Assembly: GCA_046350795.1 (NCBI GenBank)
Contig: JAXLZT010000001.1
Span: 309,780-373,779 of the forward strand
From: Minisyncoccota bacterium
GTDB lineage: Bacteria > Patescibacteriota > Minisyncoccia > Phycocordibacterales > CALRHW01
DNA: 64,000 nucleotides
Direction: 5' to 3'
A program made the translations under genes and the position numbers. The first letter of the stretch is position 1. Every line of letters starts with the position of its first letter. Shown one piece after another: positions 44,209 to 60,140 of the stretch. Below the pieces are notes generated by a model, which did not search any database, was not told the DNA's origin, and saw only the letters and a program-made list of their open reading frames with translations.

Positions 44209-44335
44209 GTTTTTTATCATCCCAACTTTATCATCTGATTCGTCTTTATACAAAAGGAAAACCTCGGCGCGCACCTGTGTGCGCACCGAGGTCATTGACC
44301 TTCGTGATCATCGCGACCAGCCCGACTCGTGCCCC

Positions 44336-44875
44336 CTAGCTGTACTTCTGAGAAAACAAGTTGGCCGCCAACTCGACGTAGAAGTCCTTCTCCTCCTCTA
44401 TGAGCCCCGCTGTCAGGAGGGTGTGGTAGGTATCGTTGAACACCTGCTCAGCTTCAGCCAAGTCTCGCTCGTTGCGTTCGCGATTATTGGGTTCATGATT
44501 GAGCTTGGCACGATTTTCCTGGACATTCAACGCCAAGTAGACCAGTCGATCGTGTGCACGGCCTTCGAGTACGCTCATGTCACTTCTGACCACTTGTGAT
44601 GGAGTGTACCTCTGTACGCATCCATCCGTGAAGTACAGGTTTTCTGCGACTTTTCTGGCCCACCTACAGAAGCCGGCAACCAAGCGCTTTTCCAGATCAT
44701 TTCCGTTGCCGGAGACGACCTTTTGGGCGATCTCTGCTGGATCAGCACCGTGCGTTTCCTCCCAGTATCTCAGTACTTGCCAGTTGAACTGTTGGTGTCT
44801 TTGGTGTGATTTGTGCATGCTCGCAGCCCACACCGCATCGTCTTTTGCAAGACTTTTCGATTTACGCAGACTCAT
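44336..44875 (-). CDS. hypothetical protein in second GC-rich islet (no recognisable family)
   Basis: This is a 179-aa ORF in a ~0.65 kb GC-rich patch directly upstream of tsaD. Two perfect short hairpins (GCGCACctgtGTGCGC; GGTCAttgTGACC) separate it from tsaD. Confidence 0.4.
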   Translation of the reverse strand: MSLRKSKSLAKDDAVWAASMHKSHQRHQQFNWQVLRYWEETHGADPAEIAQKVVSGNGNDLEKRLVAGFCRWARKVAENLYFTDGCVQRYTPSQVVRSDMSVLEGRAHDRLVYLALNVQENRAKLNHEPNNRERNERDLAEAEQVFNDTYHTLLTAGLIEEEKDFYVELAANLFSQKYS

Positions 44876-45023
44876 GTCGTGCTCCTTGAGTAGCGGTTTT
44901 TGGGTAGAGAGCGAATTCTTTATATAAGATTATTTATTAATCAAACTGTGTCAACCTCTTGAAAGAGTGTCTTTTGGTGAGCCTAATCGAGATGCGACCC
45001 AAGGATTCATTGCCCTGTAAGGC

Positions 45024-45218
45024 TCATTTTAGCTCTTCCTGACTTCTTAATCGACCCTTCTCGAGAGTAGCTTTCTTTGTATACAAATGAGGGTTTTGCT
45101 TCTTATCTTGATCTAGTAACCATTGGAATACTGCGACCACTCTGTCGCTTTCTTCTTTAGTCCAATTTTTAGGATTTCTTTTATCTTCTTGGTTCATAGA
45201 AAGTGACAAAAGTGACAC
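45024..45218 (-). CDS. small hypothetical protein (64 aa)
   Basis: This is an ORF only; no motif was recognised. Confidence 0.3.
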   Translation of the reverse strand: MSLLSLSMNQEDKRNPKNWTKEESDRVVAVFQWLLDQDKKQNPHLYTKKATLEKGRLRSQEELK

Positions 45219-45252
45219 AGAATCAAGTATAAAAGTTACACCTCAATGTAAC

Positions 45253-46161
45253 TTAATTATCTATTTGGATTATCTTTGACCCGTTGTCTGGATCCTCAGT
45301 TCTTTGTTGTAGAGTAAGCTTTCTGTAGTGAGAACAAGAGAATTTTAAGAAGTCATCTATTTCATCAAGATCAATATTTCCTTTCATGAGATCAGAAGGA
45401 TGAATCGAGATAATTAGATTTTCACATATGTTCAGATTCTTTGATGATTCGATGTAGCTTGTGATTATTTCTTTAATAGCACCTCTACGAGTCATATATG
45501 AGTCTCTTCCGTGTTGGGTATTTATTAGCGGGATAGTTAAATTTACATTCCTACCAGAATCCAAGGCAACATATTGCCAGAGCCCATTTAATGCCTGTAT
45601 AAAGTCATCAATTTCTGACCGAACACGATTGTTGTCCTTTTTAACAGAATTCACTACTAGGTAAAACTTTTTACCGTTCTGCTCCACTTCAATAGTTTTA
45701 CCTATCTCATGTTTTTGACCAATCGTAACTTTTGCGGAAATATCAGTATTTAAGTGATCAACTTTGTTTGCATAAAACTTCTGGATCACCTGATTTTGAA
45801 TACTGTTAGCCTTAAGAGCATTACCGCCAAGAGACATATCAAATTCGTCATTCACAGGAACCACCAAGGCACCACTATTATTGAAAGCATCGCCAACCTT
45901 AACTTCAATATAACTGTCTTTATTTCGCAAATTGTATTTAAAAGACGTTCGGGGTCTATTTTTTACAAGCGAAAGAATGCAGACAAGAATAAAGACTCCA
46001 CTGAATAGATAAACATTTTTGAAAATACTGTCTGTACTTTCATTCGTGCTGTAGCTAAACATCTCGACAAACAACCAAAATATACCCACCCAAGATACAA
46101 TATCAATAAAAATATTCTTCAGGTTTCTCCACCATCTTTTTATTCTGAGTGAAATTTTCAT
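45253..46161 (-). CDS. ThsA-like effector candidate: two N-terminal TM helices + cytoplasmic Macro-like domain
   Basis: The TM helices are 'IVSWVGIFWLFVEMF' and 'VYLFSGVFILVCILSLV'. The cytoplasmic segment 'IEVKVGDAFNNSGALVVPVNDEFDMSLGGNALKANSI' resembles the Macro-domain N-terminal motif (GDIt...DAIVNAANs.LlgGGGV..AI). Its start overlaps the TIR gene stop by 4 nt (ATGA), indicating an operon. Confidence 0.5.
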   Translation of the reverse strand: MKISLRIKRWWRNLKNIFIDIVSWVGIFWLFVEMFSYSTNESTDSIFKNVYLFSGVFILVCILSLVKNRPRTSFKYNLRNKDSYIEVKVGDAFNNSGALVVPVNDEFDMSLGGNALKANSIQNQVIQKFYANKVDHLNTDISAKVTIGQKHEIGKTIEVEQNGKKFYLVVNSVKKDNNRVRSEIDDFIQALNGLWQYVALDSGRNVNLTIPLINTQHGRDSYMTRRGAIKEIITSYIESSKNLNICENLIISIHPSDLMKGNIDLDEIDDFLKFSCSHYRKLTLQQRTEDPDNGSKIIQIDN

Positions 46162-46661
46162 AGCCCTAGAGCAGTATAAGCATCTTGGTTATACCGAAAA
46201 GGTCCTGTTTTACCGGCTCTTTTGTATTGGTTGTGCAATGACTCCCATTCACTCAATGCTTTACTAATAATTTTTTGATTAAAACTAACATGGACAGCAA
46301 GTTCGGTATCTAAGATTGACGGACATAGGTCATCATCGTGATATCTTTTACCATTCAGATTTACGGCAATAATAGGAAGTCCTTTTTTGATTGCTTGCTC
46401 AATTTCCCAACGAACAAACTTGTGATGAAATTTTGTTTTCTCGCCAATAAGGATGATGAAAACCTTTGTATTGTTCAGACGTTCCCTCAAACTTGCCTTA
46501 ATGGATTCTTCGGTTGACCACGGCATTATATTTGTAAGGTCGTGGGCATCGTAGAAGTTAAAGTTTGTGTTATCGTTTTGTTTCCATGCTTGCATTAAGC
46601 GGTAGTAACGAATATCGTTATCCGCATCAAAGGCAACATAAGTTTTGTTTGTGTAAGCCAT
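46158..46661 (-). CDS. TIR-like domain protein (ThsB-like, DUF1863/TIR_2-type)
   Basis: 'KTYVAFDADNDIRYYRLMQAW...TKVFIILIGEKTKFHHKFVRWEIEQAIKKGLPIIAVNLN' aligns by eye with Bacillus cereus ThsB ('RVFFSFHYQDVIDF...TSVTCVLIGSQTFNRRWVRYEIMKSIEKGNKIIGIHIN'). Confidence 0.75.
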   Translation of the reverse strand: MAYTNKTYVAFDADNDIRYYRLMQAWKQNDNTNFNFYDAHDLTNIMPWSTEESIKASLRERLNNTKVFIILIGEKTKFHHKFVRWEIEQAIKKGLPIIAVNLNGKRYHDDDLCPSILDTELAVHVSFNQKIISKALSEWESLHNQYKRAGKTGPFRYNQDAYTALGL

Positions 46662-46666
46662 ACAGT

Positions 46667-46897
46667 TTAGCCCCTTGGTGGGAATGGGTCATTTCCATAG
46701 CTGTTACGCTCTTGGATCTTTCCGTCTTTACCATGAATAAAGTGTTCAACCTTTGTTTTTTCAGCAACTTTTTCAGCTCTATCGAGAGCATTATTTTTTG
46801 TATGATGTGAAGAAATAGGAGTTGATGATCCCTCTTTTTTGTTTTCCCACATACTACGATCTGAATTGTATACAGTGTGTATATTTTTGTTAGCCAT
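46667..46897 (-). CDS. DUF2188-family small protein
   Basis: The C-terminal 'FIHGKDGKIQERNSYGNDPFPP' matches the DUF2188 signature (iHgrDGkIrernsYGnDP.pp). Confidence 0.5.
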   Translation of the reverse strand: MANKNIHTVYNSDRSMWENKKEGSSTPISSHHTKNNALDRAEKVAEKTKVEHFIHGKDGKIQERNSYGNDPFPPRG

Positions 46898-46908
46898 ATA
46901 TTTATAAA

Positions 46909-47550: not shown

Positions 47551-47628
47551 ACACCTATTATAGCATACTTTTCAACTTACAACAATATAAATTTGACACT
47601 TTTGACGGCAATCTGATATACTTTCCCT

Positions 47629-48048
47629 ATGGAGCAAAGTTTGCAATTAAATCGAGTAACACAGCTTCCAAAGAAAGGTGAAAAAGTCATCGTTCTTGAG
47701 CTTACCGATATTCAATTGCACTCTAATGCAAGACCTACCCAATCGGTTGGTGGTGCAATACGACGCTCCATAGAAAATAATAAGCCTGGTCGTATCTTTT
47801 CTTCTCTTGAGAAGAAACAAGAATCAAGTGCTGATCAAAATTCAATAGAGTTCACCATGCCGTTTGCAATGAACGATCCTGTACTAAAGCAAACAATCCA
47901 TGACTACCAACAACAAGGTTATCGTGTATTGATTCAAATGCCGAAATCAGGACTACCGATTCATCTTGGCAAGGATGCTGTCGAATTTATGAATAGTACT
48001 CGAGGAAAGCGAATCTTGAGAAAGATAAAGAAAGACAAAGGAAATTAA
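47629..48048 (+). CDS. hypothetical protein divergently transcribed from lexA-like gene
   Basis: This is a 139-aa ORF with a basic C-terminus. No family was recognised. Confidence 0.35.
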   Translation: MEQSLQLNRVTQLPKKGEKVIVLELTDIQLHSNARPTQSVGGAIRRSIENNKPGRIFSSLEKKQESSADQNSIEFTMPFAMNDPVLKQTIHDYQQQGYRVLIQMPKSGLPIHLGKDAVEFMNSTRGKRILRKIKKDKGN

Positions 48049-48207
48049 ATAAAAACGCGTCGTAAAAGCGAATAGTGCAACGCCACAAGCCATGCCTATT
48101 CCGCGCAAGAAGTAGTTTGAGGTTTTTCGGACCTCTACTTATTTCGTGTGTGGAATAGGCTTTTTCTATATCCATACATTTTATTAAAGATTAATTAATA
48201 AAATGCT

Positions 48208-49482
48208 ATGAAAAAACTTTCATGGACTACAGGAGTTCGAGAGGTCAAAGACCTACTCCCTTGGCAAGAAAACCCAAGAAAAATCTCAAAGCAAGCGTTA
48301 GATAAGTTGAAAGAAAAGATCACACAAAACGGCTTCCACAGCGTGATCGTGATTGATACCGACAATACGATTCTGTCAGGGAATCAAAGAAAGGTTGCAC
48401 TCATGGAGCTTGGTATCAATACCGTAGACGTAATGATCCCTAGTCGTAAGCTAAGTGATGCAGAACGACGAAGAATCGGTATTGAAAGCAATATCAATGA
48501 CGGTGAATGGAATTTCGAGAAATTGAAGTCATTTGATCTGGAACTACTCCAATTTGCAGGATTCGATGAAAAAGAATTAGTGAAGTTCTGGGACGAAGAA
48601 AAAGACACTAAAGACGACAAGTTCGATGTAGACAAGGAACTCAAGAAAATTAAGACGCCTCAAACAAAGTTGGGTGATCTTATTATCATGGGTAATCATA
48701 AGTTGCTTTGCTCAAGTTCTACTGATATCACTGCGGTTAAAAAACTATTCGGTGATGATAGAGCTACTGCTATCTACAGTGATCCACCTTTTAATATTGG
48801 GCTTTCATATGACAAAGGCGTTGGTAATAAATCAAACTATGGTGGTTCATTTGATGATAATCAATCACCAGAAGCATACAAGGAATTTATTCGCCAAGTT
48901 CTCACATCATCACTCGCCATATCCACCAAAGATACACATGTTGCATTTTGGTGTGATGAAGCGTGGGTGTGGGTTTTTCAAACCTTATATATGGAACTGG
49001 GCGTAAAGAATCGTAGGCTAAATATTTGGATCAAGAACAACTCCTCGCCTATACCCACCGTCGCATTTAACAAGTGTGCGGAGTATTGCGTGTACGGCAC
49101 AAAAGGATCTCCGTATCTGTCTGATTTAGTCAAAAACCTTAACGAGATTCAAAACAAGAATTGCACAACTGGAAATCAACTTCTTGAAGATATCTCGAAC
49201 ATTTGGGCAACTAAACGACTGCCGTCAAACCAAATGGAGCACCCTACAAGCAAAAATCCTGAACTACACCACAAGTTCATCATGCGATGCACAAAGCCAG
49301 GAGACATAATCTTCGATGCCTTTTCTGGTTCTGCTAGCACCATGATCTGTGCGGAGCAACTTGATCGCAAAGTCTACTCACTTGAAATTGAACCCGTGTT
49401 CTGTGACTTGGCAATTCGCAGATACGAAAAATTGACTGGTCGGAAAGCAAAAGTAATCAAGAACTTCTATGAAAAAGAATAA
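48208..49482 (+). CDS. ParB-like nuclease domain fused to N6-adenine/N4-cytosine DNA methyltransferase (phage-type orphan MTase)
   Basis: The N-terminal ParB/Srx-like domain is 'SKQALDKLKEKITQNGFHSVIVIDTDNTILSGNQRKVA'. Motif IV is 'AIYSDPPFNIGLSY' (DPPY/F). The SAM-binding motif I near the C-terminus ('DIIFDAFSGSASTMICAE') indicates beta-class N6_N4 MTase topology. Confidence 0.8.
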   Translation: MKKLSWTTGVREVKDLLPWQENPRKISKQALDKLKEKITQNGFHSVIVIDTDNTILSGNQRKVALMELGINTVDVMIPSRKLSDAERRRIGIESNINDGEWNFEKLKSFDLELLQFAGFDEKELVKFWDEEKDTKDDKFDVDKELKKIKTPQTKLGDLIIMGNHKLLCSSSTDITAVKKLFGDDRATAIYSDPPFNIGLSYDKGVGNKSNYGGSFDDNQSPEAYKEFIRQVLTSSLAISTKDTHVAFWCDEAWVWVFQTLYMELGVKNRRLNIWIKNNSSPIPTVAFNKCAEYCVYGTKGSPYLSDLVKNLNEIQNKNCTTGNQLLEDISNIWATKRLPSNQMEHPTSKNPELHHKFIMRCTKPGDIIFDAFSGSASTMICAEQLDRKVYSLEIEPVFCDLAIRRYEKLTGRKAKVIKNFYEKE

Positions 49483-49876
49483 ATTTCAGGATCAGTTTCT
49501 TGATGAACTACGAAAAGTTCCGATCGTTCAAGTTGCTTGTGAGAAAACAGGATTGTCTCGCAATAGTGTTTATCGTTGGAGAAAAGATGATAAAGCATTT
49601 CTCAAGAAGATGGACGATGCACTTGCCGATGGTGTCGCATTGGTAAACGACATGAGTGAAAGCCAACTACTCACACTCATTAAAGAGAAAAATTATCCTG
49701 CAATCAGTTTCTGGCTTAAACATCGCAATGATAATTATAAAAACAAGCTAGAGATCACCACTAAAGAAGATTCTGAACAACTTACTCCTTCACAAGCAAA
49801 AATCGTGAAGCAGGCACTTAAGCTCGCCAATATAACAAAATCGAAATCGATTAAAAACATTAACTCTAAAAAGTAA
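49469..49876 (+). CDS. phage terminase small subunit-like HTH protein
   Basis: It has the HTH 'VACEKTGLSRNSVYRWRKDD'. It lies immediately upstream of TerL and overlaps the preceding gene by 14 nt. Confidence 0.5.
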   Translation: MKKNKFQDQFLDELRKVPIVQVACEKTGLSRNSVYRWRKDDKAFLKKMDDALADGVALVNDMSESQLLTLIKEKNYPAISFWLKHRNDNYKNKLEITTKEDSEQLTPSQAKIVKQALKLANITKSKSIKNINSKK

Positions 49877-49877
49877 C

Positions 49878-51374
49878 ATGACTAAAATAATTCCAAATGC
49901 ATTGGTGAATACCATGCTAAAAGATCGTTCCGTGCGAACATCTATTACAAAAGACAGTTTCCTGTATTTCTTCCACTTCTACTACGCCCACTATGTAAAA
50001 TACGAAACCGCTGACTTTCAGAAAGAGATTATTCATAATCTCGAAAAAAGCTCGATTGAGAATATGTACGTTGTCGCATTTCGTGGATCAGGAAAATCTA
50101 CAATGGTGACGACCGCATATCCTATCTGGGCAATACTTGGAAAACAACAAAAGAAGTTTTGTATTATCTTTTGCCAAACTCGAGCACAAGCAAAACAGCA
50201 TATGATGAACATTCGTACTGAGCTTGAGGGTAACGATGTTCTTAAAAAGGATCTCGGACCATTCCAAGAAGAAAGCGATGAGTGGGGTTCGTTCTCATTA
50301 GTATTCAAAAAGCACGGAGCAAGAATCACCGTAGCTTCTGCCGAGCAAAGTATCCGTGGCATTCGTCACAACGAACACCGCCCAGACTTAATAATCTGTG
50401 ATGACGTTGAGGACGTGCAATCGACCAAAACCCGTGAGGGACGAGATAAAACATACCATTGGCTTCGAGGTGAAGTTATCCCTGCTGGCGATAGAAACAC
50501 CCGACTAATTATTGTTGGAAACTTACTCCATGAAGATTCACTCTTGATGCGTATTAAAGACGAAATCGCCAAAGGTAAGGCAAAAGGAATATTCAAGGAG
50601 TACCCGCTTATAGATAATCATGGTGTGTGCTTATGGTCAGGTAAATACAAAAGCGAGAAAGATCTTGAGGATGAAAAGTTGAAAGTTTCTAGTGATATAT
50701 CATGGCAACGAGAATATCTATTGCGTATTATTCCAGACGATGATCAGGTTATTTATCCTGAATGGATCAACTACTACGACGAATTGCCAGGCGAAAAGCA
50801 CCGGGGATTCAGAGGCACTTATGCGGGTGTCGATCTTGCGATTTCAGCTTCAGAAACTGCTGATGACACTGCTGTTGTATTTGCTCATATATATTCACGC
50901 CGTGAGAAAATGCGAATATACATATTGCCTAATCCTATCGCAAAGAAACTTAATTTTCCTGCACAGGTAGATCTCATGAAAGATATTCGTAGTACGATGC
51001 TCATAAAAAGTACGGACGAGTTATTTGTAGAAAGCGTGGCGTACCAAGAAGCACTTCCGCAAATGCTCGAACACCAAGGTGTTAAAGCGACAGCAATCAA
51101 ACCTAAAGGAGATAAAAGAACACGACTTGCTCTTACTTCGACCGCAATAAAATCATCAAAGATCTTATTTCCAAGACAAGGATGCGAGAGACTTATTGAG
51201 CAACTTGTAGGGTTTGGAGTAGAAAAGCATGACGACCTTGCCGATGCATTTTCGTTGCTTATAAACTCAACCATGGATAAGCATGCTAAAGATTCAACAT
51301 GGCTTATGTACTGGATGGGAGATGAAGAACCTTTGTACTATAGAGATTACGTTGATATGGACATAAAAAAGTAG
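49878..51374 (+). CDS. phage terminase large subunit (ATPase + RNaseH-like nuclease domains)
   Basis: Walker A is 'VAFRGSGKSTMV' and Walker B is 'LIICDDVED'. The nuclease-domain motif is 'YAGVDLAISASETADDTAVVFAHI'. Confidence 0.8.
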   Translation: MTKIIPNALVNTMLKDRSVRTSITKDSFLYFFHFYYAHYVKYETADFQKEIIHNLEKSSIENMYVVAFRGSGKSTMVTTAYPIWAILGKQQKKFCIIFCQTRAQAKQHMMNIRTELEGNDVLKKDLGPFQEESDEWGSFSLVFKKHGARITVASAEQSIRGIRHNEHRPDLIICDDVEDVQSTKTREGRDKTYHWLRGEVIPAGDRNTRLIIVGNLLHEDSLLMRIKDEIAKGKAKGIFKEYPLIDNHGVCLWSGKYKSEKDLEDEKLKVSSDISWQREYLLRIIPDDDQVIYPEWINYYDELPGEKHRGFRGTYAGVDLAISASETADDTAVVFAHIYSRREKMRIYILPNPIAKKLNFPAQVDLMKDIRSTMLIKSTDELFVESVAYQEALPQMLEHQGVKATAIKPKGDKRTRLALTSTAIKSSKILFPRQGCERLIEQLVGFGVEKHDDLADAFSLLINSTMDKHAKDSTWLMYWMGDEEPLYYRDYVDMDIKK

Positions 51375-51446
51375 TCGCGAGTATGCGACGTATTTCTAGT
51401 TCTGCATAGTCTATGCACCACCGACTGGTCTGTCATTAATTAATAT

Positions 51447-52730: not shown

Positions 52731-52734
52731 GAAA

Positions 52735-53916
52735 TCAAGACTTTTTTCCAGCATGTTCAACAATGAATTTTGCTCGTTCATAAAGCTCATCATAAGTTAA
52801 AATCTCAATGTTTTTGGAGTCACGTCGAAACAATTCAAATGTTTTTGCTTTTATTTGGTTTTCTTTATCAGTACCATCAAATTGTTTTGTTGATCCGATA
52901 ACTAAGATACTCTTGGGATCAAATGCTTTTTGCTTAATTAATTCTCCTTTATCATTATAGTTTCCATTTACATTTGTTTCTGCTGTAATTTGCCAACTAG
53001 CTTTTTGCTCTAGTATTTGAGACAAGCCTGAAACTAGATCATCCGAGAGTGTCCACGAATTTGAACGATTCTTATCTTTACCAAATAAAGGGGTATCGTG
53101 CTTTTTAAGTTCAACTAGTACTGTAAATTTACTACACCCTAAAAGGAAGTCGTTAATAACAGATTCTTTTCCTGATACGTCTGTACCTGATACGTGTGCT
53201 TCTTTTTGTAAAATTCCAAGGAATCGATAATCTAGTCCATATCCAAAAATCCAATCATTTATATTAAAGAAATGTTGCCAGACAGATTCATGTCTCGTAT
53301 CTGTTATATTATTCTCGGAAATGTAGGTTGCAAAATAGCCCTCTTGATTTAAAAGATTATTAAAAATTTCTAGTTGCTTCTTACGGTATCCTATATTTAC
53401 AATATCAGTTGAAGTTATAATACCACTAGCTAAAACCTCCTCGATAATCTCTTGACCGTCCTTTCTCAATAATAGTGTTTTAATTTTTTTCTTTGTTTCA
53501 TCGTCTATATTGGGGAGATTATCATCAGCAAGCGTAATTCTTCTTTCATTCACGTCGCCAAGGTTTAATTCTGAAAGGAGTTGTAGATATCCAATGATCT
53601 GCTTGAAAAATGGAAAAGAGAAGACGATTTGTTCATCTTGTTCAACATAACCTTTGTTTTTGTAAAACTTAAATCGCTTAAAAGAAACATTGGTAATCTC
53701 ATTATTTTGTTTAATAAATGTAAAAGTAGTTTTAATTTTATTCCTTATGACAGGATAAGGATGTTCTACTTCAATAGCATCTGGTACACCATTTTCATCT
53801 CTTGAGACAATGGTAAAATATTTCCCAGCTTCATTTTTGAATTTATGGGTATATAGTGTGTCGGTTTTGTAATTATCGACTATTTTTTCTTCTGAATTTT
53901 CAATTTCTAGTCCCAT
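52735..53916 (-). CDS. putative PD-(D/E)xK nuclease-domain protein, DUF4263/Shedu (SduA)-like
   Basis: The 393-aa length fits the family. The candidate nuclease motif is '...GTDVSG...TVLVELKKHD' (D...ExK on a hydrophobic beta-strand), with a C-terminal '...EILTYDELYERAKFIV'. It lies immediately downstream of hsdR in the same orientation. Confidence 0.4.
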   Translation of the reverse strand: MGLEIENSEEKIVDNYKTDTLYTHKFKNEAGKYFTIVSRDENGVPDAIEVEHPYPVIRNKIKTTFTFIKQNNEITNVSFKRFKFYKNKGYVEQDEQIVFSFPFFKQIIGYLQLLSELNLGDVNERRITLADDNLPNIDDETKKKIKTLLLRKDGQEIIEEVLASGIITSTDIVNIGYRKKQLEIFNNLLNQEGYFATYISENNITDTRHESVWQHFFNINDWIFGYGLDYRFLGILQKEAHVSGTDVSGKESVINDFLLGCSKFTVLVELKKHDTPLFGKDKNRSNSWTLSDDLVSGLSQILEQKASWQITAETNVNGNYNDKGELIKQKAFDPKSILVIGSTKQFDGTDKENQIKAKTFELFRRDSKNIEILTYDELYERAKFIVEHAGKKS

Positions 53917-53921
53917 ATAAT

Positions 53922-56900
53922 TTATTCCTTAAACTTACCACCTGAAATATCAAAGAATCTTTCAAAGAAGTTTGTGAATTTAGTTAATACGCTCTCACGT
54001 TTTTTGGTTCGATCACCACTTGGAGAAAAGCGAGATACTGGGGGTAGTACTTTTGTTATTGCGGTTCCTGTTGTTGCGACACTTCCGTCACGGAAAGCAT
54101 TTTGTATGAAAGTATATGTTGCGTCATGATCGAGATTCTCACTAGCAATAATCTTTTCTAATTCCTCAATTTTCTTCTCTTCAACAAACTTTTTCCAGTC
54201 ATCATCAACAGCAGAGTGTACATCTAGAGAAGTAATGAATTGATTGATTAGATCTTTCTTATTTCTTAACTCAACACTAGAATCAATAGCTTTATTAATA
54301 TCAATTAGTAGTTCTCGATTATTTATATGATCCTCGTGATATCTCCTGATTAGTCCCAACACATAATCAATATTGATTTCAATTTGTTTTATAAGCTCCA
54401 TTTCAAAGACTACATCTTCATTGATGTTTTCTTTATCTTCTTCGATTGTCTTTCGGAACTCATTGTACAAATCAATGTACATACTGTGATAATCTTGAAC
54501 ATCTCGATCAGTCAAAATTTCATTACCTGCAAACTCGTCAAAAGTTGCAAGAATGTTACGAACACGCAATACCGCACCATACAGCTTAATAAATTCCTTT
54601 TGTTGTTGTTCACTAATGATTCGTTCACCTACAGGGAACTTCTCCAAAAGTTCATCTACTAAACTCCTATATCCTCTGATTTCTTTGTCGCCATCTTTGT
54701 AACCGTTGTAATAATCCGCATATGCTTTCAAAAGCACAACACCACAAGCCTCTTTGTCACCAAAGAGAGCAATTGATTCATTTGTGGCTTTTTCAAGATT
54801 TCGGAAACAAACAATATTTCCAAAAGTCTTTACGCTATTCAAAATACGGTTAGTTCTTGAATATGCTTGAAGCAAACCATGTAGACGGAGATTTTTATCT
54901 ACCCAAAGAGTATTGAGGGTAGTCGCATCAAATCCAGTTAAGAACATGTTCACTACGATAAGAATATCGATTTCTCTGTCTTTTACACGCTGACTAACAT
55001 CCTTATAATAGTTTTGAAATTTATCAGAAGAAGTGTCATAAGACGTGCCAAACATCGCATTGTAGTCCTTAATTGCATTATCTAGAAAATCCCTCGAACT
55101 AACATCAAGACCGCTCGTATCTTCAGAATTTTCATCGATCATTCCGTCAGCATCCTCGTCATTAACCCCAAAACTGAAAATGGTTGCGATTTTAAGTTGC
55201 TTATCACTTGGCACATCAGCTAATTGCTTCTTAAACTCCATGTAATACTTTTTAGCAACATCAATTGATGAAACTGCAAAGATAGAGTTAAATCCTGCCA
55301 ACCGTCGATCCTTTAATTTGTAGAAACTATTACGCTTTGTCTTTTGATCAAAATGTTCACGTATGTAGCCAACAATGTTTTCCAAGCGTTCAGGAGAAGC
55401 AAGAACAGCCTCACGATCAATGTCGCTCACTTTCTTGTCCTCAATATTTTCAGCTTCTTTTACAGTTGAAACGTAATCAACCTTAAATGGTAGTACGTTT
55501 TTATCTGCAATCGCATCAACGATTGTATAAGTGTGTAATTTTTCACCAAAAGCTTGCTCAGTAGTTTTTAGATCGGGTCGTCCTCCAGAAGAAGCATTCA
55601 TCGCAAAAATCGGTGTACCAGTAAAGCCAAAAAGATGATAGTTCTTAAATGTCTTTGTAATCGCAGCATGCATATCACCAAACTGTGATCGGTGACATTC
55701 ATCGAATATCAAAACTACATGATCATCAAAAATTTCGTGATTACCATTCCGACCAATAAAACGATCTAGTTTTTGAATGGTCGTGATAATAATCCGTGCA
55801 TTTGGGTTTTCAAGTTGTTTCTTCAGTAATGCTGTTGAGGTGTTACTATTCGCCGCACCTTTTTCAAACTTGTCATATTCACGCATTGTTTGATAATCCA
55901 AATCTTTACGATCCACAACAAAAACAACCTTATCTACATATGACAACTTACTTGCAAGCTGTGCTGTTTTAAAGCTAGTAAGTGTTTTTCCTGACCCTGT
56001 TGTATGCCAGATGTAACCACCAGCCTCTACAGTGCCGAGTTTTTTGTAGTTAGTACTAACCTCAATCCTGCTTAGAATTCTTTCTGTTGCAACAATCTGA
56101 TATGGTCGCATTACCAAGAGTTGTTTATCAGTAGTGAAAACGCAGTACCGAGTGAGAATGTTTAAAAGCGTGTGTTTTGCAAAAAAAGTTTTTGTAAAAT
56201 CCATCAAATCAGTAATGGGTCGGTTTGTAGCATCTGCCCACCAACTTGTGAATTCGAAACTGTTACTTGTACGTTTTCCTTTCTTTACAGTTCCTTCATT
56301 TGATTCTCTTATGTGTTGTCTTCGTACAGTGTTACCGTAATACTTTGTATGTGTACCGTTTGAAATTATAAATAGTTGTACATATTCAAAAAGACCAGAA
56401 GAAGCCCAGAAGCTTTCTCTTTGATAACGATTGATCTGATTAAAAGCTTCTTGAATGGCAACACCACGGCGTTTCAACTCAATATGAACAAGAGGTAGAC
56501 CATTAACAAGAACAGTTATGTCATATCGGTTTGATCTTTTTCCGTCTTCAGTAGCGTACTGGTTAATAACTTGAAGACTGTTGTTATGAATATTTTTCTT
56601 GTCTATCAAATCAATATTCTTGAAAGTGCCGTCATCTCGCTTTAGTACTTTTGTATTGTCTTCTTGAATAGTTGTCGTTTTATCTTCAATACTTTGATTT
56701 GGATTTGCTAGTTCATTTACAAAAAATCTTTCCCATTCAAGGTCTGTAAATTCAAAATTATTTAGTTTTTCTAGCTGTTTACGTAAGTTAACAACCAAAG
56801 TTGCTTCAGATGTAATCGGGAGATATTCGTATGCCTGTGTTTCTAATTGCTTTACAAGTGCACGTTCAAGTTCCGCCTCACTTTGATAGTGAGCCACTCT

Positions 56901-56981
56901 CTTACCGTCAGAAACATATTCTGCAACTACAGTACTTTGCGAATTTTCCGCAACTAAATTGTATTTATTGTTAATTGACAT
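53922..56981 (-). CDS. hsdR: type I restriction enzyme R subunit (HsdR)
   Basis: It is 1019 aa. The N-terminal HsdR_N nuclease region is followed by SF2 helicase motifs: motif I is 'WHTTGSGKTLTSFK', the DEAH-like box is 'IFDECHRSQ', and motif VI is 'QAYSRTNR'. Confidence 0.9.
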   Translation of the reverse strand: MSINNKYNLVAENSQSTVVAEYVSDGKRVAHYQSEAELERALVKQLETQAYEYLPITSEATLVVNLRKQLEKLNNFEFTDLEWERFFVNELANPNQSIEDKTTTIQEDNTKVLKRDDGTFKNIDLIDKKNIHNNSLQVINQYATEDGKRSNRYDITVLVNGLPLVHIELKRRGVAIQEAFNQINRYQRESFWASSGLFEYVQLFIISNGTHTKYYGNTVRRQHIRESNEGTVKKGKRTSNSFEFTSWWADATNRPITDLMDFTKTFFAKHTLLNILTRYCVFTTDKQLLVMRPYQIVATERILSRIEVSTNYKKLGTVEAGGYIWHTTGSGKTLTSFKTAQLASKLSYVDKVVFVVDRKDLDYQTMREYDKFEKGAANSNTSTALLKKQLENPNARIIITTIQKLDRFIGRNGNHEIFDDHVVLIFDECHRSQFGDMHAAITKTFKNYHLFGFTGTPIFAMNASSGGRPDLKTTEQAFGEKLHTYTIVDAIADKNVLPFKVDYVSTVKEAENIEDKKVSDIDREAVLASPERLENIVGYIREHFDQKTKRNSFYKLKDRRLAGFNSIFAVSSIDVAKKYYMEFKKQLADVPSDKQLKIATIFSFGVNDEDADGMIDENSEDTSGLDVSSRDFLDNAIKDYNAMFGTSYDTSSDKFQNYYKDVSQRVKDREIDILIVVNMFLTGFDATTLNTLWVDKNLRLHGLLQAYSRTNRILNSVKTFGNIVCFRNLEKATNESIALFGDKEACGVVLLKAYADYYNGYKDGDKEIRGYRSLVDELLEKFPVGERIISEQQQKEFIKLYGAVLRVRNILATFDEFAGNEILTDRDVQDYHSMYIDLYNEFRKTIEEDKENINEDVVFEMELIKQIEINIDYVLGLIRRYHEDHINNRELLIDINKAIDSSVELRNKKDLINQFITSLDVHSAVDDDWKKFVEEKKIEELEKIIASENLDHDATYTFIQNAFRDGSVATTGTAITKVLPPVSRFSPSGDRTKKRESVLTKFTNFFERFFDISGGKFKE

Positions 56982-58191
56982 ATTCGTTGAAGGTTAAAAG
57001 TTTTCCTCGGTAATATTCATATTGTGATCGACGTGCCTTAAGTTCAGCAGGTAATCCGATTGAAATATTGTTTACCAAATCATCAAATTTATCGAGGATG
57101 CTCACTATTCTTTTTTGTTCTTCAAGCGGAGGTACGGGTATTTGTATTTTTAGAATATCGTCTTTGCGAAGATTTGTTTGATCAGCACCGTTATCGTATC
57201 TAAGCAGTTGTCTGTTTCTACTTAATATGTAAAAAAGATATTTTGAATATATTTCATCTTTATTTTTAACACTCAAAGCACAGATTCGTTGATTTAAAGT
57301 GTATTTGTCGTTCTCATCAACATAAAAACATTTTGCTAGTGCTTTTCCGTTTGGGAGATCGCTCATAACCATCAAAATATCATTTTCAAATACAGGAGAA
57401 ATCTGACTGACAGAATATTTTTTAACTCTTCCATCTGTCGAAACAAATTTAGAATTAACAACAATATATTTGCCGTTTTCATCTATTAGTTTTTCGTGTC
57501 CTTTTCCATTCATAAAGTTAATAACCTGATCAAGTGGTAACCATTGTGTACTTCCCGCATTATCAAACGTCAATAATTGCGTACGGTAATGCTCATACTG
57601 CTTTTTTCTAGCTTCCAGCTCTGCTTCCAGCTCTGCTTCCAGCTCGGTAAAACTATTAAGTAGTTTGACAATCTCTTCTTGTATAGCAAGTGGTGGAATT
57701 GGTATTTTATACTCATCCCTAATTACTGATGGATGGGCTTTTTTGGTATAGTCAAAAACCTTTGTCATCCATGCGTCTGACAACACAAAATATAAATATT
57801 TTGTGTTCAATGCCTTTGTGTTGTTAACTTTTAACCACCCAGAAACATTTGTTACTGAATACTTATGGGTTGGTCGATAAAAAAAGCGACCACCTCCATC
57901 TATGGACCATGAAATACGCTCATCATCAAACATATATTTGCCATATCTACCAAATTCACCCGAACCAGTAGCGGAAGATGAGTATACGGGATAATCACCT
58001 GGTATTTTCGCTAAGTCATTTTTTGAGATAACTTCTCCTCGACCCAGCTTAATCATGTCTAAATCTTCAAGTTCTCCGAGTTTCTTAAACTCTACTCCGT
58101 TAGGAGATAGTTCAAGGATGAGTTTTTCAATTTTACTTTGAGTTTTAGTCATGTTTCCTTGTTTTTTCGATTTCTCTAACAATTTCATCAA
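56971..58191 (-). CDS. hsdS: type I restriction-modification specificity subunit (HsdS) with two target-recognition domains
   Basis: There are two TRDs, each followed by a conserved helical region. The central conserved region contains the tandem tetrapeptide repeat (ELEA)x3. It overlaps hsdM by 47 nt and hsdR by 11 nt. Confidence 0.85.
   Translation of the reverse strand: MMKLLEKSKKQGNMTKTQSKIEKLILELSPNGVEFKKLGELEDLDMIKLGRGEVISKNDLAKIPGDYPVYSSSATGSGEFGRYGKYMFDDERISWSIDGGGRFFYRPTHKYSVTNVSGWLKVNNTKALNTKYLYFVLSDAWMTKVFDYTKKAHPSVIRDEYKIPIPPLAIQEEIVKLLNSFTELEAELEAELEARKKQYEHYRTQLLTFDNAGSTQWLPLDQVINFMNGKGHEKLIDENGKYIVVNSKFVSTDGRVKKYSVSQISPVFENDILMVMSDLPNGKALAKCFYVDENDKYTLNQRICALSVKNKDEIYSKYLFYILSRNRQLLRYDNGADQTNLRKDDILKIQIPVPPLEEQKRIVSILDKFDDLVNNISIGLPAELKARRSQYEYYRGKLLTFNEYVN
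57611..57646. repeat. perfect 12-bp tandem repeat x3 (gcttccagctct) inside hsdS central conserved region, encoding (ELEA)3
   Basis: The plus-strand sequence is gcttccagctct gcttccagctct gcttccagctcg. Confidence 0.9.
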
Positions 58192-59740
58192 TCGACTTGC
58201 GGAGTTCGTTTTGTCGAATAACTATTTGATCAATCTCTGAGTTAAGTTCAGTAATATTTATAACTTCACGAGTATCTTCTGCAACAACATAACTTGAGAC
58301 ATCAAGCTTGTATGCATTATCAGAAATGTCCTTATTACTTACTAATTTAGCAAAGTGCTCTATATCCTTTCTCTCAATGAAAGCAGCCAGTATCTTTTTT
58401 CTATTTTCATCACTAAGTTTATTTTTATTTCCGCCACGAACAAATTCTGTTGAAGCATCTATGAAAAGTGTTCTGTTATCTTTTTTGCTCTTCTTAAGAA
58501 CAACAATACAAGTTGCAATACCTGTACCGAAGAAGAGGTCTTGAGGTAATTGGATAACAGTGTCCACATAGTTATTATCAATCAAATATTTTCTGATTTT
58601 CTGCTCAGCACCACTACGATAGAGAACCCCTGGGAATTCAACAATCGCCGCAGTTCCACTTGTAGAAAGCCATGAGAGCATGTGCATTGTAAATGCAAGA
58701 TCTGCTTTACTTTTAGGTGCTAGAACTCCAGCAGGAGAGAATCTTGGATCATTAATAAGTATAGGATTAGCATCACCCTCCCAATTAATTGAATATGGTG
58801 GATTTGAAACTATTGCATCAAATGGCTCATCGTCCCAGTGTTTAGGGTCGGTTAATGTATCTCCGTGAGCGATATCGAAATTATTGTAATTAACATCGTG
58901 CAAAAACATGTTAATACGACACAGGTTGTAAGTGGTTAGATTTATTTCTTGCCCATAAAAACCTTGTCTTACATTTTCCTTACCAAGTACCTTGGCAAAT
59001 TTAAGAAGTAGAGATCCTGATCCACAACAAGGATCGTATACTTTATTAACTTCCTTTTTACCGACTGTTGTAATCTCAGCGAGAAGCTCACTAACTTCTT
59101 GAGGTGTGTAATATTCTCCACCAGATTTTCCTGCGTTTGAGGCATACATTGCCATGAGGTACTCATACGCATCACCAAAAGCATCGATTGTATTATCAGC
59201 ATAATCACCTAGACGAAGATCACCAATTGCTTCTAGAAGTTTTGTGATTCTTTGATTTCTTTTTTCTACGGTACCACCCAACTTGTTTGAATTAACATCC
59301 AAATCATCAAATAGACCCTTGAGATCTTCTTCGCTACTTGAACCTTTCGCAGAACTTTCAATATTACTAAATACGTTAGAAAGGGTTTCGTTTAGATTTG
59401 CATTGTTTCGTGCATTTTTACGAACATTAACAAAAAGCTCGCTAGGTAAGATGTAAAATCCTTTTTCTTTTACAGTATCAGCACGACCGAATTCAGCTTC
59501 TTTATCAGAGAGTGAAGTATAGTCAAAATCTTTATTTCCTGAGCGTCGTTCATCAGCATTAATATAATTTGTTAGGTTTTCGCTGATGAATCTATAAAAA
59601 AGTATTCCAAGAACATATTGTTTAAAATCCCATCCATCCACACTACCTCGAAGATCATTGGCAATTTGCCAAATTGCACGATGGAGTTCAGCTCGTTCTT
59701 GTTCTTTTGTTGTATTTAAATTTGTTTTATCTTTACTCAT
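58145..59740 (-). CDS. hsdM: type I restriction-modification DNA methyltransferase subunit (HsdM, N6-adenine)
   Basis: The N-terminal HsdM_N domain is 'LHRAIWQIANDLRGSVDGWDFKQYVLGILFYRFISE'. Motif I is 'VYDPCCGSGSLLL' and motif IV is 'IVSNPPYSINW'. Confidence 0.9.
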   Translation of the reverse strand: MSKDKTNLNTTKEQERAELHRAIWQIANDLRGSVDGWDFKQYVLGILFYRFISENLTNYINADERRSGNKDFDYTSLSDKEAEFGRADTVKEKGFYILPSELFVNVRKNARNNANLNETLSNVFSNIESSAKGSSSEEDLKGLFDDLDVNSNKLGGTVEKRNQRITKLLEAIGDLRLGDYADNTIDAFGDAYEYLMAMYASNAGKSGGEYYTPQEVSELLAEITTVGKKEVNKVYDPCCGSGSLLLKFAKVLGKENVRQGFYGQEINLTTYNLCRINMFLHDVNYNNFDIAHGDTLTDPKHWDDEPFDAIVSNPPYSINWEGDANPILINDPRFSPAGVLAPKSKADLAFTMHMLSWLSTSGTAAIVEFPGVLYRSGAEQKIRKYLIDNNYVDTVIQLPQDLFFGTGIATCIVVLKKSKKDNRTLFIDASTEFVRGGNKNKLSDENRKKILAAFIERKDIEHFAKLVSNKDISDNAYKLDVSSYVVAEDTREVINITELNSEIDQIVIRQNELRKSIDEIVREIEKTRKHD

Positions 59741-59744
59741 AAAA

Positions 59745-59951
59745 TTATTTTAATAATTCGTTAGTCGACACTCCCAATGTCTGGGCTAGATTAGTAATAG
59801 TTGAAAGAGTAGGGTTTGTCTTTCCATTCTCAATATTACTTACAAAAGATTTGTCTACACCGAGTGTTTTGGCAAGTTCGGTTTGCGTAATATTCTTCTT
59901 AGTTCTGATTTTCTTGAGATTCTCTCCTAATTTTTTGGCACCATCTTTCAT
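59745..59951 (-). CDS. XRE-family helix-turn-helix transcriptional regulator (controller-like, upstream of the R-M operon)
   Basis: The HTH_3 motif is 'ITQTELAKTLGVDKSFVSNIENGKTNPTLSTITNLAQTLGVSTNEL'. Length is 68 aa. Confidence 0.7.
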   Translation of the reverse strand: MKDGAKKLGENLKKIRTKKNITQTELAKTLGVDKSFVSNIENGKTNPTLSTITNLAQTLGVSTNELLK

Positions 59952-59986
59952 AAAAAGATTATAACATAAATCGTTGTATTAAACTA

Positions 59987-60015
59987 CAACAAAAGCAAGT
60001 CATAAATGACTTGCT
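59987..60015. terminator. hairpin terminator (GCAAGTCATaaATGACTTGC + T-rich tail), potentially bidirectional
   Basis: The sequence is aaaaGCAAGTCATaaATGACTTGCttttgtttg, located between the XRE gene and tRNA-Glu. Confidence 0.55.
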
Positions 60016-60068
60016 TTTGTTTGCTAGTTTCGACCCTTGTCGAGTGCTCGAACTAGCTCTCTCTATTG

Positions 60069-60140
60069 TGACCCTACCGGGAATCGAACCCGGCTTTGCG
60101 CCTTGAAAGGGCACTGTCCTAACCGATAGACGATAGGGCC
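60069..60140 (-). tRNA. tRNA-Glu (anticodon TTC)
   Basis: The reverse complement folds with acceptor GGCCCTA/TAGGGTC, anticodon stem GTGCC/GGCGC with loop CTTTCAA, and T-arm CCGGG-TTCGATT-CCCGG. No encoded CCA. Confidence 0.8.

What the first reader, a model, noticed from the sequence alone, without database searches (positions are those of the whole stretch)
44215..59990. Composite defence island with phage packaging genes but no virion structural genes (satellite-like or degraded prophage) inserted between tsaD and tRNA-Glu
Within ~16 kb there is a LexA-like repressor divergent from an unknown gene, a ParB-nuclease/DNA-methyltransferase fusion (typical phage anti-restriction MTase), TerS-like and TerL genes, and a large serine recombinase. 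These are followed, on the opposite strand, by a Shedu-like nuclease, a full type I R-M system and an XRE controller. Having TerS/TerL plus integrase but no capsid, portal or tail genes resembles phage-inducible chromosomal islands/satellites, which hijack helper capsids. Such elements are essentially undescribed in CPR bacteria. Alternatively this is a decayed prophage that has become a defence-gene sink.
Basis: partly seen in the sequence, partly recalled or inferred. Interest (0 to 1): 0.65.

Follow-up and report, generated by a model that had tools for sequence, protein, structure and literature searches.

The report
Terminase-carrying mobile defence island in CPR
A 15-kb mobile element in a tiny Paceibacteria (CPR) bacterium carries four anti-phage systems and its own DNA-packaging enzyme but no virus-shell genes, and it belongs to a large, apparently undescribed family that probably spreads by borrowing the capsids of other phages.

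Summary
Conspecific assemblies (98-99% identical flanks) lack window 44980-60039. They carry a 0.59-kb cassette there instead, so this is a 15.06-kb strain-variable insertion 28 bp from tRNA-Glu, with TG at both junctions. orf179 is backbone, not element.

It is not a one-off decayed prophage. Fourteen other loci share a core of orfX, ParB-methylase, TerS and TerL. Most also have a divergent S24 repressor (nine; one uses XRE+M78) and a large serine recombinase (twelve). They come from different CPR hosts and chromosomal sites, and TerL is 57-94% identical. Cargo bays differ between loci: Thoeris, CBASS, Shedu, OLD-like, R-M types I/III/IIG, DGRs. None has portal, capsid, tail or replication genes.

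TerL and TerS are the most conserved proteins (dN/dS about 0.03-0.05, catalytic motifs invariant). TerL is far more similar between elements than host genes are between their hosts.

Best reading: a new satellite-like family of mobile defence islands that package themselves with their own terminase into helper capsids. Integration, conservation and selection are shown. Induction, excision, packaging and the helper are inferred.

The parts
44978..44979 (.). Left junction: TG dinucleotide, the last bases shared with element-free conspecific strains (candidate crossover in attL)
   Evidence: L129rc is 99% identical to the window up to 44979 and diverges from 44980. Logan contigs from two samples end at 44970.
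44980..45071 (.). Conserved left-terminal block of about 92 nt, holding two TCGAG-type motifs (44988-45001 and 45052-65). Candidate P' arm plus accessory sites.
   Evidence: Aligns in 9 elements from different hosts and flanks. No conserved RNA fold on either strand.
45024..45197 (-). orf57 lying in a roughly 134-bp insert, shared only with L095 (90% nucleotide identity)
   Evidence: no family match
45200..45252 (.). Four 9-mer boxes: AAAGTGACA twice, then AAAGTTACA-n6-TGTAACTTT. Candidate protein-binding or pac site at the left end.
   Evidence: Conserved in all 9 elements whose left end is available, including L100 (TerL 58%). The boxes cluster only here within the island.
45253..46161 (-). 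ThsA with Macro domain (type II Thoeris effector); left cargo bay
   Evidence: Pfam ThsA_Macro 6.9e-28; PADLOC ThsA 2.8e-38
46158..46661 (-). ThsB TIR (Thoeris sensor); left cargo bay
   Evidence: Pfam ThsB_TIR 2.1e-22; PADLOC ThsB 2.1e-74
46667..46897 (-). DUF2188 / PDC-S16 small protein, a recurrent accessory gene next to the repressor
   Evidence: also in L095, L097, L099 and L127
46909..47550 (-). S24 (LexA/CI-like) autocleavable repressor with GNSM Ser and IKR Lys motifs; first gene of the leftward operon that continues into the left cargo
   Evidence: Peptidase_S24 2.1e-20; lexA model 81 bits, below its cut-off; sequence. Same position in 9 other loci.
47593..47622 (+). Best sigma-70-like promoter in the island (TTGACA-18-TGnTATACT), upstream of orfX
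   Evidence: 11 of 12 matches, extended -10
47629..48048 (+). orfX (139 aa): family-specific protein with an invariant LTDIQLH motif and unknown fold. Candidate early regulator or recombination directionality factor (inference only).
   Evidence: 54 homologues, all without annotation; alignment; AF2 model pLDDT 76 with no PDB fold match; no Pfam, PHROG, PADLOC or NCBIfam hit
48094..48165 (+). Conserved 67-nt hairpin plus U5, an intrinsic-terminator-like gate between orfX and the packaging operon
   Evidence: dG -38.7 kcal/mol, z -7.0. 21 pairs are nearly invariant in 7 loci. No Rfam family.
48208..49482 (+). ParB-like N-terminal domain fused to an N6/N4 DNA methyltransferase
   Evidence: N6_N4_Mtase 9.9e-28; phrog_498 1.5e-72 and ParB phrog_620 8.4e-21
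49469..49876 (+). Small terminase subunit (HTH N-terminus); overlaps the methylase stop and abuts TerL
   Evidence: phrog_4044 1.5e-9; 69-92% amino-acid identity across loci, dN/dS about 0.03-0.04
49878..51374 (+). Large terminase subunit with intact ATPase (AFRGSGKST, DLIICDDVED) and nuclease (GVDLA, HDDLADAF) motifs
   Evidence: phrog_38 7.6e-77; NCBIfam termin_lrg_T7 and psiM2_ORF9; T7 gp19 alignment; invariant motifs; dN/dS 0.04
51447..52730 (+). Large serine recombinase (integrase), catalytic Ser in YARKS
   Evidence: Resolvase, Recombinase and Zn_ribbon_recom; phrog_95 5.6e-63; sequence
52735..53916 (-). Shedu SduA nuclease; right cargo bay
   Evidence: SduA_C 1.1e-27; PADLOC SduA 7.9e-147
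53922..59740 (-). Type I restriction-modification system: HsdR 53922-56981, HsdS 56971-58191, HsdM 58145-59740; right cargo bay
59745..59951 (-). 68-aa XRE controller heading the right cargo operon; a recurrent right-terminal gene
   Evidence: HTH_3 3.3e-19. The same 68-72 aa gene occupies the same position in L095 and L127. Start and promoter are 89% identical to L095.
59988..60021 (.). Bidirectional terminator hairpin just inside the right end
   Evidence: 16-bp perfect arms; positional equivalents with different stems in L003, L007, L087 and L095
60031..60067 (.). Right junction. The sequence CGACCCTTG|TCGAGTGCTCGAACTAGC has TG at 60038-60039 and ends 28 bp before the tRNA-Glu 3' end.
   Evidence: Identity to element-free strains resumes at 60040. 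The motif lies next to tRNA-Glu in L003, L055, L087 and L129. There is a near-repeat of 45052-65.
60068..60140 (-). tRNA-Glu(UUC), the landmark next to the integration site (host)

Best explanation
Window 44980-60039 is a 15.06-kb integrative mobile element. It belongs to a large family of CPR/Patescibacteria elements for which I found no description.

SHOWN
- Conspecific strains lack it. It sits 28 bp from the 3' end of tRNA-Glu, and both junctions end in TG, as expected for a serine-recombinase crossover.
- Its backbone recurs in other hosts and sites. The backbone is an S24 repressor divergent from orfX, a terminator-like hairpin, the translationally coupled ParB-methylase/TerS/TerL genes, and a large serine recombinase.
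- Two cargo bays hold different defence systems in each copy. Here the left bay holds DUF2188 and type II Thoeris behind the repressor. The right bay holds Shedu and a type I R-M system behind an XRE controller.
- TerS and TerL are intact, are the most conserved genes and are under strong purifying selection.
- The element is far more similar between hosts than host genes are.
- There are no capsid, portal, tail, lysis or replication genes.

INFERRED (most likely mode of life): a phage satellite.
- In the resting state the repressor operon and the XRE operon express the defence cargo.
- DNA damage or helper-phage infection inactivates the S24 repressor.
- Transcription from the orfX promoter passes the hairpin gate.
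- The recombinase excises the element, possibly with orfX as directionality factor.
- The element's own terminase recognises an element-specific site, for which the left-terminal 9-mer boxes are the candidate, and loads the DNA into procapsids supplied by a helper phage.
For: Presence/absence: L129 (GCA_964417815.1), L130, L133, L135 and L137 are 98-99% identical to window 34336-44979 and to 60040-64000. They carry 0.59 kb in place of the 15 kb.

Synteny: in relatives tRNA-Glu lies 0-2 kb from tsaD.

Family: the orfX/methylase/TerS/TerL core is present in L003, L004, L005, L006, L007, L092, L095, L097, L098, L099, L100, L126, L127 and L128, and none has structural genes. Twelve also carry the serine recombinase and nine the S24 repressor. 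At least 120 TerL clusters are 77% or more identical, many on chromosomal contigs up to 281 kb.

Selection: TerL and TerS have dN/dS 0.03-0.05 with synonymous sites saturated. TerL is 78-94% identical between loci, against 47-87% for the methylase, 55-77% for the recombinase and 30-40% for orfX. Catalytic motifs are invariant.

Horizontal transfer: host TrxB is 51% identical between the window and L003 hosts, while TerL is 94%. The adjacent tRNAs differ: Glu, Gln, Asp.

Terminal and regulatory sequences are conserved.

The window flanks are housekeeping genes.
Against: - No helper phage, excised circle, attP junction or virion-derived copy was found. The IMG/VR scan for the terminal motif gave only integrated copies.
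- There is no replication module, which PICI and P4-type satellites usually have.
- There is no capsid-size-redirection gene.
- Some copies look decayed: L007 TerL has an in-frame stop, and L098 lacks both repressor and recombinase.
- The element-free allele is not a clean attB. It holds a small cassette with a diverged copy of the left block, so the TG crossover assignment is provisional.
- Only 15 loci were inspected. The planned 80-locus metagenome scan failed.
Confidence: 0.55

Rival explanations
1. Decayed prophage. A once-complete temperate phage lost its structural, lysis and replication modules, and the stump passively accumulated defence genes.
For: All backbone genes are phage-type. 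Some family members show decay: a stop codon in L007 TerL and loss of the recombinase in L098.
Against: The same structure-less core occurs in 15 loci with TerL down to 57% identity, in different hosts and at different sites. Independent decay would not converge on this. TerL and TerS have dN/dS 0.03-0.05 with saturated synonymous sites. The element is strain-variable and transferred between hosts whose TrxB is only 51% identical. No complete relative was seen.
Confidence: 0.05
2. Split, domesticated packaging system (GTA-like). The terminase cassette serves capsid and tail genes located elsewhere in CPR genomes and packages host or element DNA for the benefit of the host.
For: TerL is very strongly conserved across CPR classes. 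The cassette can exist without recombinase or repressor (L098).
Against: The cassette is absent from conspecific strains, which is not expected for a domesticated host function. It is linked to an integrase and an MGE-type repressor in most copies. No structural genes occur in 64 kb of this window or within 10 kb of the 14 relatives. CPR genomes are small.
Confidence: 0.1
3. The methylase/TerS/TerL cassette is itself an anti-phage or interference device. It could be a decoy or competing terminase that cuts or mis-packages invading phage DNA. The element would then spread by some other route.
For: It always sits among defence systems. Known satellites and prophages block helper packaging by acting on the terminase (abstracts listed, PMC11417361 and 10.1101/2025.02.27.640495). 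A methylase upstream could protect the element's own DNA.
Against: TerL matches no PADLOC model. Interference and self-packaging are not exclusive: in known satellites the two go together. The conserved terminal repeats and the recombinase fit a transferred unit.
Confidence: 0.12
4. In-situ headful packaging, Mu-like or lateral-transduction-like. The terminase starts at the left-terminal boxes of the integrated element, without excision, and fills helper heads with the element plus downstream host DNA.
For: The nearest cultured-phage TerLs are from Mu-like transposable phages, at 22-26% identity. The candidate pac boxes sit at the extreme left end and all core genes lie to their right. There is no replication module. 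Lateral transduction of defence genes is documented (PMC12829572).
Against: The similarity to Mu-like TerL is weak. An intact, conserved recombinase argues that excision matters. There are no data on packaged ends.
Confidence: 0.13

Closest known systems
Phage-inducible chromosomal islands (PICIs/SaPIs)
   Same: Size of about 15 kb. Site-specific integrase. Master repressor divergent from the rightward operon. Own TerS. No virion genes. Defence systems as cargo.
   Different: Serine rather than tyrosine integrase. No primase/rep-ori module. Carries a full TerL as well as TerS. No capsid-size-redirection genes (cpm/ppi-like) were recognised. The host is CPR. Helper induction is untested.
Capsid-forming PICIs (cfPICIs)
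   Same: A satellite that brings its own terminase rather than relying on the helper's.
   Different: cfPICIs encode capsid, portal, protease and head-tail connectors and take only tails from the helper (10.1101/2022.09.08.507074). None of these genes is present here.
PICMIs (minimalist marine satellites)
   Same: Very reduced backbone, no replication module, and TerS-directed packaging.
   Different: PICMIs have a tyrosine integrase, AlpA and Fis, are about 6 kb, lack TerL, and occur in Vibrionaceae (PMC10803314).
P2/P4 defence hotspots and the lambda cI-rexAB arrangement
   Same: Variable defence genes sit in fixed bays of a conserved mobile backbone. The left bay is co-transcribed with the immunity repressor, as rexAB is with cI (own knowledge).
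   Different: Those backbones are complete phages or P4 satellites of enterobacteria. The backbone here is unrelated.
SCCmec-type and other large-serine-recombinase islands
   Same: The recombinase matches the CcrB, CcrA and XisF models. The island is inserted at a fixed chromosomal site.
   Different: All scores are far below the family cut-offs. SCC elements carry no terminase or phage-type repressor.

Membership tests
Complete temperate prophage (Caudoviricetes) | Portal, major capsid, tail and lysis genes contiguous with the terminase | tested here: not met
   No such Pfam or PHROG hit for any ORF in 44.2-60.1 kb. Flanks are housekeeping genes. Also absent in 14 related loci.
PICI | Site-specific integrase at one end, flanked by att sites | tested here: met
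   Large serine recombinase 51447-52730. Junctions mapped against element-free strains. Classical PICIs use tyrosine integrases.
PICI | Master repressor divergently transcribed from the excision/replication/packaging operon | tested here: met
   S24 repressor (-) facing orfX (+), with a strong promoter between them
PICI | Replication module (primase/helicase-rep plus ori) | tested here: not met
   No primase, helicase or Rep domain in any element ORF. orfX has unknown function.
PICI | Own TerS, or other means of redirecting helper packaging | tested here: met
   TerS phrog_4044 1.5e-9, plus TerL
PICI | Induction and transfer by a helper phage | not testable with these tools
   No helper identified; no virome or read data available
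cfPICI | Own capsid, portal, protease and head-tail connector genes | tested here: not met
P4-like satellite | Alpha primase, sid/psu/delta, AlpA | tested here: not met
   No matching families. There is only a sub-threshold AlpA-like HTH hit inside TerS.
Gene transfer agent | Head-tail structural cluster encoded by the host genome, with no preferential self-transfer | tested here: inconclusive
   None in the 64-kb window. The rest of the genome was not available. Strain-variable presence argues against it.
Terminase large subunit | Walker A/B ATPase domain plus C-terminal RNase-H-like nuclease with catalytic Asp residues | tested here: met
   AFRGSGKST and DLIICDDVED align to the T7 gp19 motifs. 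psiM2_ORF9 nuclease domain scores 43 bits against a cut-off of 41.65. GVDLA and HDDLADAF are invariant.
Large serine recombinase | Resolvase catalytic domain with Ser nucleophile, plus recombinase domain and zinc ribbon | tested here: met
   All three Pfam domains are above cut-off. YARKS motif.
Thoeris type II | ThsB TIR protein adjacent to a ThsA carrying a Macro domain | tested here: met
   Pfam and PADLOC hits. The genes overlap by 4 bp.
Shedu | Single SduA protein with a DUF4263 nuclease domain | tested here: met
   PADLOC SduA 7.9e-147, full length
Type I restriction-modification | HsdR, HsdM and HsdS (two target-recognition domains) in one operon | tested here: met
   (Methylase_S matches in two stretches)

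The most novel reading that the evidence does not exclude
This is a new class of phage satellite. It carries a complete, extremely conserved terminase (TerS and TerL) but no capsid or replication genes. It is a major vehicle by which CPR/Patescibacteria exchange anti-phage systems. Its packaging operon is gated by a conserved terminator hairpin that is opened only during induction or helper infection. Packaging may start in situ from the left-terminal boxes, so that neighbouring host DNA is also transduced.
Probability: 0.3. Interest if true: 0.85.

Novelty: new variant of a known kind. Interest (0 to 1): 0.72.

Why it matters
CPR bacteria make up a large share of bacterial diversity. They have genomes of about 1 Mb and live as epibionts, and little is known about their phages or their mobile elements.

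A compact, widespread island would be a concrete route by which immune systems move in this radiation. It shuffles Thoeris, CBASS, Shedu, R-M systems and DGRs between distantly related CPR hosts.

A satellite design with both TerS and TerL but no capsid genes is not among the described satellite families. The element's conserved terminase could be used to find the unknown helper phages of CPR bacteria through their matching portals. Its recombinase and att sites are candidate genetic tools for organisms that currently have very few.

Tried and rejected
1. Metagenome-wide scan for TerL contexts.
2. IMG/VR scan for the 18-nt left-terminal motif, looking for circular or attP junctions. Of 26 hits, only three were family members and all were integrated. 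The rest were unrelated tandem repeats.
3. Rfam searches of the GC-rich left flank and of the orfX-methylase spacer found no known family.
4. RNA folding of the 92-nt left block found no conserved structure on either strand. It is therefore treated as a DNA-level site. Its resemblance to a degenerate tRNA 3' end was judged by eye only and is weak, and ARAGORN calls nothing there.
6. I first took the 13/14-nt direct repeat CGACCCTT[C/G]TCGAG (45052-65 and 60031-44) as the att core. Comparison with element-free strains puts the left junction about 70 bp further left, at 44979/44980, so the internal copy is an accessory or pseudo-site.
7. I first treated orf179 as part of the island because of its 52% GC. 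This was rejected because it is present and identical in strains without the element.
8. Literature searches for this family in CPR found nothing.

Full report
OBSERVATION

On the minus strand is an S24/LexA-like repressor (46909-47550). It faces a plus-strand operon:
- orf139, here called orfX (47629-48048)
- a ParB-N6/N4 methylase (48208-49482; phrog_498, 1.5e-72)
- a 135-aa TerS (49469-49876; phrog_4044, 1.5e-9)
- TerL (49878-51374; phrog_38, 7.6e-77)
- a large serine recombinase (51447-52730; three Pfam domains, phrog_95 5.6e-63)

Convergent with these, on the minus strand, are Shedu SduA (PADLOC 7.9e-147), HsdR/HsdS/HsdM and a 68-aa XRE.

The last two form a type II Thoeris system.

No ORF matches a portal, capsid, tail, lysis or replication family. 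tRNA-Glu(UUC) is at 60068-60140 and tRNA-Val at 60217-60290. The host is a Paceibacteria/Parcubacteria (CPR) bacterium.

IT IS AN INSERTION, AND THE BORDERS CAN BE MAPPED

In relatives, the tRNA-Glu/(Ser)/Val cluster lies 0-2 kb upstream of tsaD. In the nearest one (L008) tRNA-Glu is 440 bp from tsaD.

The orphan protein orf179 (44336-44875) led to conspecific assemblies. These are L129 (GCA_964417815.1, a 137-kb contig), L130, L133, L135 and L137. They are 98-99% identical to window 34336-44979 and to 60040-64000. In place of the 15 kb between those points they carry 0.59 kb.

Identity stops after ...GTGTCTTTTGGTG (44979) and resumes at TCGAGTGCTCGAAC (60040). Both junctions are preceded by TG, which fits the 2-bp crossover of a serine recombinase. 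Logan contigs from two samples end at 44970.

The element is therefore 44980-60039 (15,060 bp), and orf179 is backbone. One caveat applies. The alternative allele is not an empty attB. It holds a diverged copy of the element's left-terminal block, one unknown gene (orf168) and the same right-hand motif. It looks like a remnant or a mini-cassette in the same slot, so the TG assignment is provisional.

On the right the window continues with PG-binding, CAP, TrxB, FtsZ and FtsA genes. On the left it continues with PrsW, HSP20, LepA and MurJ. The remaining 44 kb is housekeeping, including SecA, GatB, Obg and MurB. This is therefore not one end of a larger prophage.

IT BELONGS TO A LARGE, CONSERVED FAMILY

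TerL has at least 3403 homologues at E ≤ 1e-10. The best 120 clusters are all 77-93% identical. Many lie on chromosomal contigs of up to 281 kb labelled Paceibacterota, Colwellbacteria, Moraniibacteria or Patescibacteria.

I inspected 14 further loci: L003-L007, L092, L095, L097-L100 and L126-L128.
- TerL is 57-94% identical to the window's across these loci.
- All have methylase, TerS and TerL in the same order.
- Twelve have the serine recombinase downstream of TerL. In nine it follows directly. In three, cargo lies between: L003, L004 and L128.
- L006 ends inside TerL, and L098 has no recombinase.
- Nine have the divergent S24 repressor. L099 has an XRE plus M78 peptidase pair instead.
- None has a virion or replication gene.

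The variable parts occupy fixed bays.
- Left bay, behind the repressor: Thoeris-type TIR proteins (window, L003, L126), CD-NTase plus Cap15 CBASS (L095, L128), Shedu (L099, L127), a caspase-like protease (L092), OLD/AAA proteins (L100, L097).
- Right bay, behind the recombinase, led by a 68-72-aa XRE in the window, L095 and L127: Shedu plus type I R-M here, an Eco57I-like enzyme plus SNF2 in L095, and type III-like R-M in L097 and L100.
- Between TerL and the recombinase: type III-like R-M in L003, diversity-generating retroelements in L003 and L004, and an SNase in L128.

Where a tRNA lies close to the right end it differs between loci: Glu in the window and L003, Gln in L095, Asp in L007.

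THE TERMINASE IS FUNCTIONAL AND THE ELEMENT MOVES

Between the window and the other loci, TerL is 78-94% and TerS 69-92% identical at the protein level. Their synonymous sites are saturated (pS 0.58-0.99). Where dN/dS can be computed it is 0.03-0.05. The methylase (47-87%), the recombinase (55-77%) and orfX (30-40%) diverge much more.

The TerL motifs are intact. The Walker A (AFRGSGKST) and Walker B (DLIICDDVED) motifs align to those of T7 gp19. The nuclease motifs (GVDLA, HDDLADAF) are invariant in 14 sequences.

The hosts of the window and of L003 share only 51% identity in TrxB. Their elements share 94% (TerL), 92% (TerS) and 87% (methylase). Together with the strain-level polymorphism, this shows horizontal transfer.

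The closest cultured-phage TerLs are only 22-26% identical and come from Mu-like phages.

CONSERVED NON-CODING FEATURES

1. The left end carries a block of about 92 nt (44980-45071) followed by four 9-mer boxes: AAAGTGACA twice, then AAAGTTACA-n6-TGTAACTTT (45200-45252). These are present in all nine elements whose left end is available, including L100 at 58% TerL identity. The block has no conserved RNA fold. I regard it as the P' arm plus protein-binding sites. The boxes are a candidate pac or TerS site.
2. The best promoter match in the island lies just upstream of orfX.
3. Between orfX and the methylase, seven loci share an almost invariant 67-nt hairpin followed by U5 (48094-48165). Its dG is -38.7 kcal/mol and its z-score is -7.0. 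No Rfam family matches. It would stop transcription before the packaging genes unless it is overridden.
4. The right end has a bidirectional terminator hairpin (59988-60021) and the motif CTTGTCGAGTGCTCGAACTAGC next to tRNA-Glu. The same motif lies next to tRNA-Glu in L003, L055, L087 and L129.

MECHANISM

Shown:
- a serine-recombinase-type insertion that varies between strains
- a conserved backbone with exchangeable defence cargo
- a terminase under selection
- transfer between distant hosts

Inferred:
- The repressor operon and the XRE operon keep the defence cargo expressed in the resting state. This parallels cI-rexAB in lambda (own knowledge).
- The S24 protein has the Ser (GNSM) and Lys (IKR) motifs needed for self-cleavage. 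SOS or helper infection would therefore derepress the orfX promoter.
- Read-through of the hairpin would switch on the methylase, TerS, TerL and the recombinase.
- The element would then excise and be packaged by its own terminase into capsids supplied by a helper phage.

orfX is a family-specific protein of unknown fold. Its position suggests an early regulator or a recombination directionality factor, but nothing tests this.

Rivals:
- Independent prophage decay is contradicted by the recurrence of the same core and by selection on the terminase.
- A GTA-like split system is made unlikely by the strain-variable presence and the linkage to an integrase. It cannot be excluded without whole genomes.
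- A purely defensive 'decoy terminase' is possible and is not exclusive with self-packaging.
- In-situ headful packaging from the left end, without excision, is a sub-variant worth testing.

COMPARISON AND NOVELTY

The element works most like a PICI-type satellite carrying defence cargo. It fails PICI membership on the replication module. It also differs in having a serine integrase and a complete terminase. It lacks the capsid genes of cfPICIs, and it is unlike P4, PLE or PICMI elements.

Six full-text literature searches found no description of such an element in CPR bacteria. I rate it a new variant of a known kind, namely a satellite-like mobile defence island. Interest is fairly high because the family is widespread in a poorly understood radiation. 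The claim of helper dependence remains untested.

Noticed in passing
window 44336-44875 (-), hairpin 44260-44293: orf179 is an orphan gene with 52% GC in a 37% GC genome. It has only one homologue (66% identity) in the 5.8-billion-protein collection and is followed by a 15-bp-stem terminator. It is present in strains with and without the element, so it is backbone. One strain (L134) has an extra 138-aa ORF between it and tsaD.
   Followed up: partly
L129 9319-9825 (+); reverse complement of L129, 10645-11235: In conspecific strains the slot holds a 0.59-kb cassette: a diverged copy of the element's left-terminal block, an unknown 168-aa gene with no Pfam hit, and the right-hand motif. It may be a remnant left by an internal deletion, or a mini-cassette exchanged at the same sites.
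   Followed up: partly
L003 9579-12490; L004 2603-5481: Two family members carry a diversity-generating retroelement between TerL and the recombinase. L003 has bAvd, and both have a reverse transcriptase and a target ORF. In L003 the variable region (10398-10523) differs from the template (10898-11026) at template adenines, which is typical of an active DGR.
   Followed up: partly
L007 4251-5741: The TerL of this family member (57% identical) has one in-frame stop after residue 105, while the neighbouring methylase and recombinase are intact. It may be a recent pseudogene, a sequencing error or recoding.
   Followed up: no
L098 7367-11509: A minimal family member has only the left-terminal boxes, orfX, methylase, TerS and TerL. 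It has no repressor, cargo or recombinase and lies between host genes (TspO, DnaG, sigma-70). The four-gene packaging core can therefore persist alone.
   Followed up: no
L127 1-4644: Immediately left of the L127 element lie the end of a second serine recombinase and a type III-like R-M pair. This suggests tandem elements or a neighbouring island of the same family.
   Followed up: no
L041 9295-9435 and 12840-12947; L087 1-140: tsaD loci of other Paceibacteria contain a 47-aa recombinase fragment (70% identity) and an XRE fragment (83%) in L041. L087 has the right-terminal hairpin and motif next to tRNA-Glu, with 6.6 kb of unexamined DNA before tRNA-Val. These look like remnants of related elements at the same hotspot.
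   Followed up: no
L010-L058: Among relatives the tRNA-Glu/Ser/Val cluster upstream of tsaD occurs in both orientations. tRNA-Ser(CGA) is absent from this locus in the window. In L003 the element separates tRNA-Ser from tRNA-Glu, and the two genes have the same orientation, unlike the usual divergent pair. The site appears to be a rearrangement hotspot.
   Followed up: no
window 45024-45197 (-): A 57-aa ORF lies in a roughly 134-bp insert within the left end. The insert is shared at 90% nucleotide identity only with L095, whose cargo and host differ.
   Followed up: no
window 39001-40000 and 29001-30000: There is a local GC spike (51%) at 39-40 kb over ORFs 38961-39629 and 39672-40085. There is also a GC-skew spike (0.42) at 29-30 kb, at the end of a 2122-aa ORF (22988-29356). 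Neither was examined.
   Followed up: no
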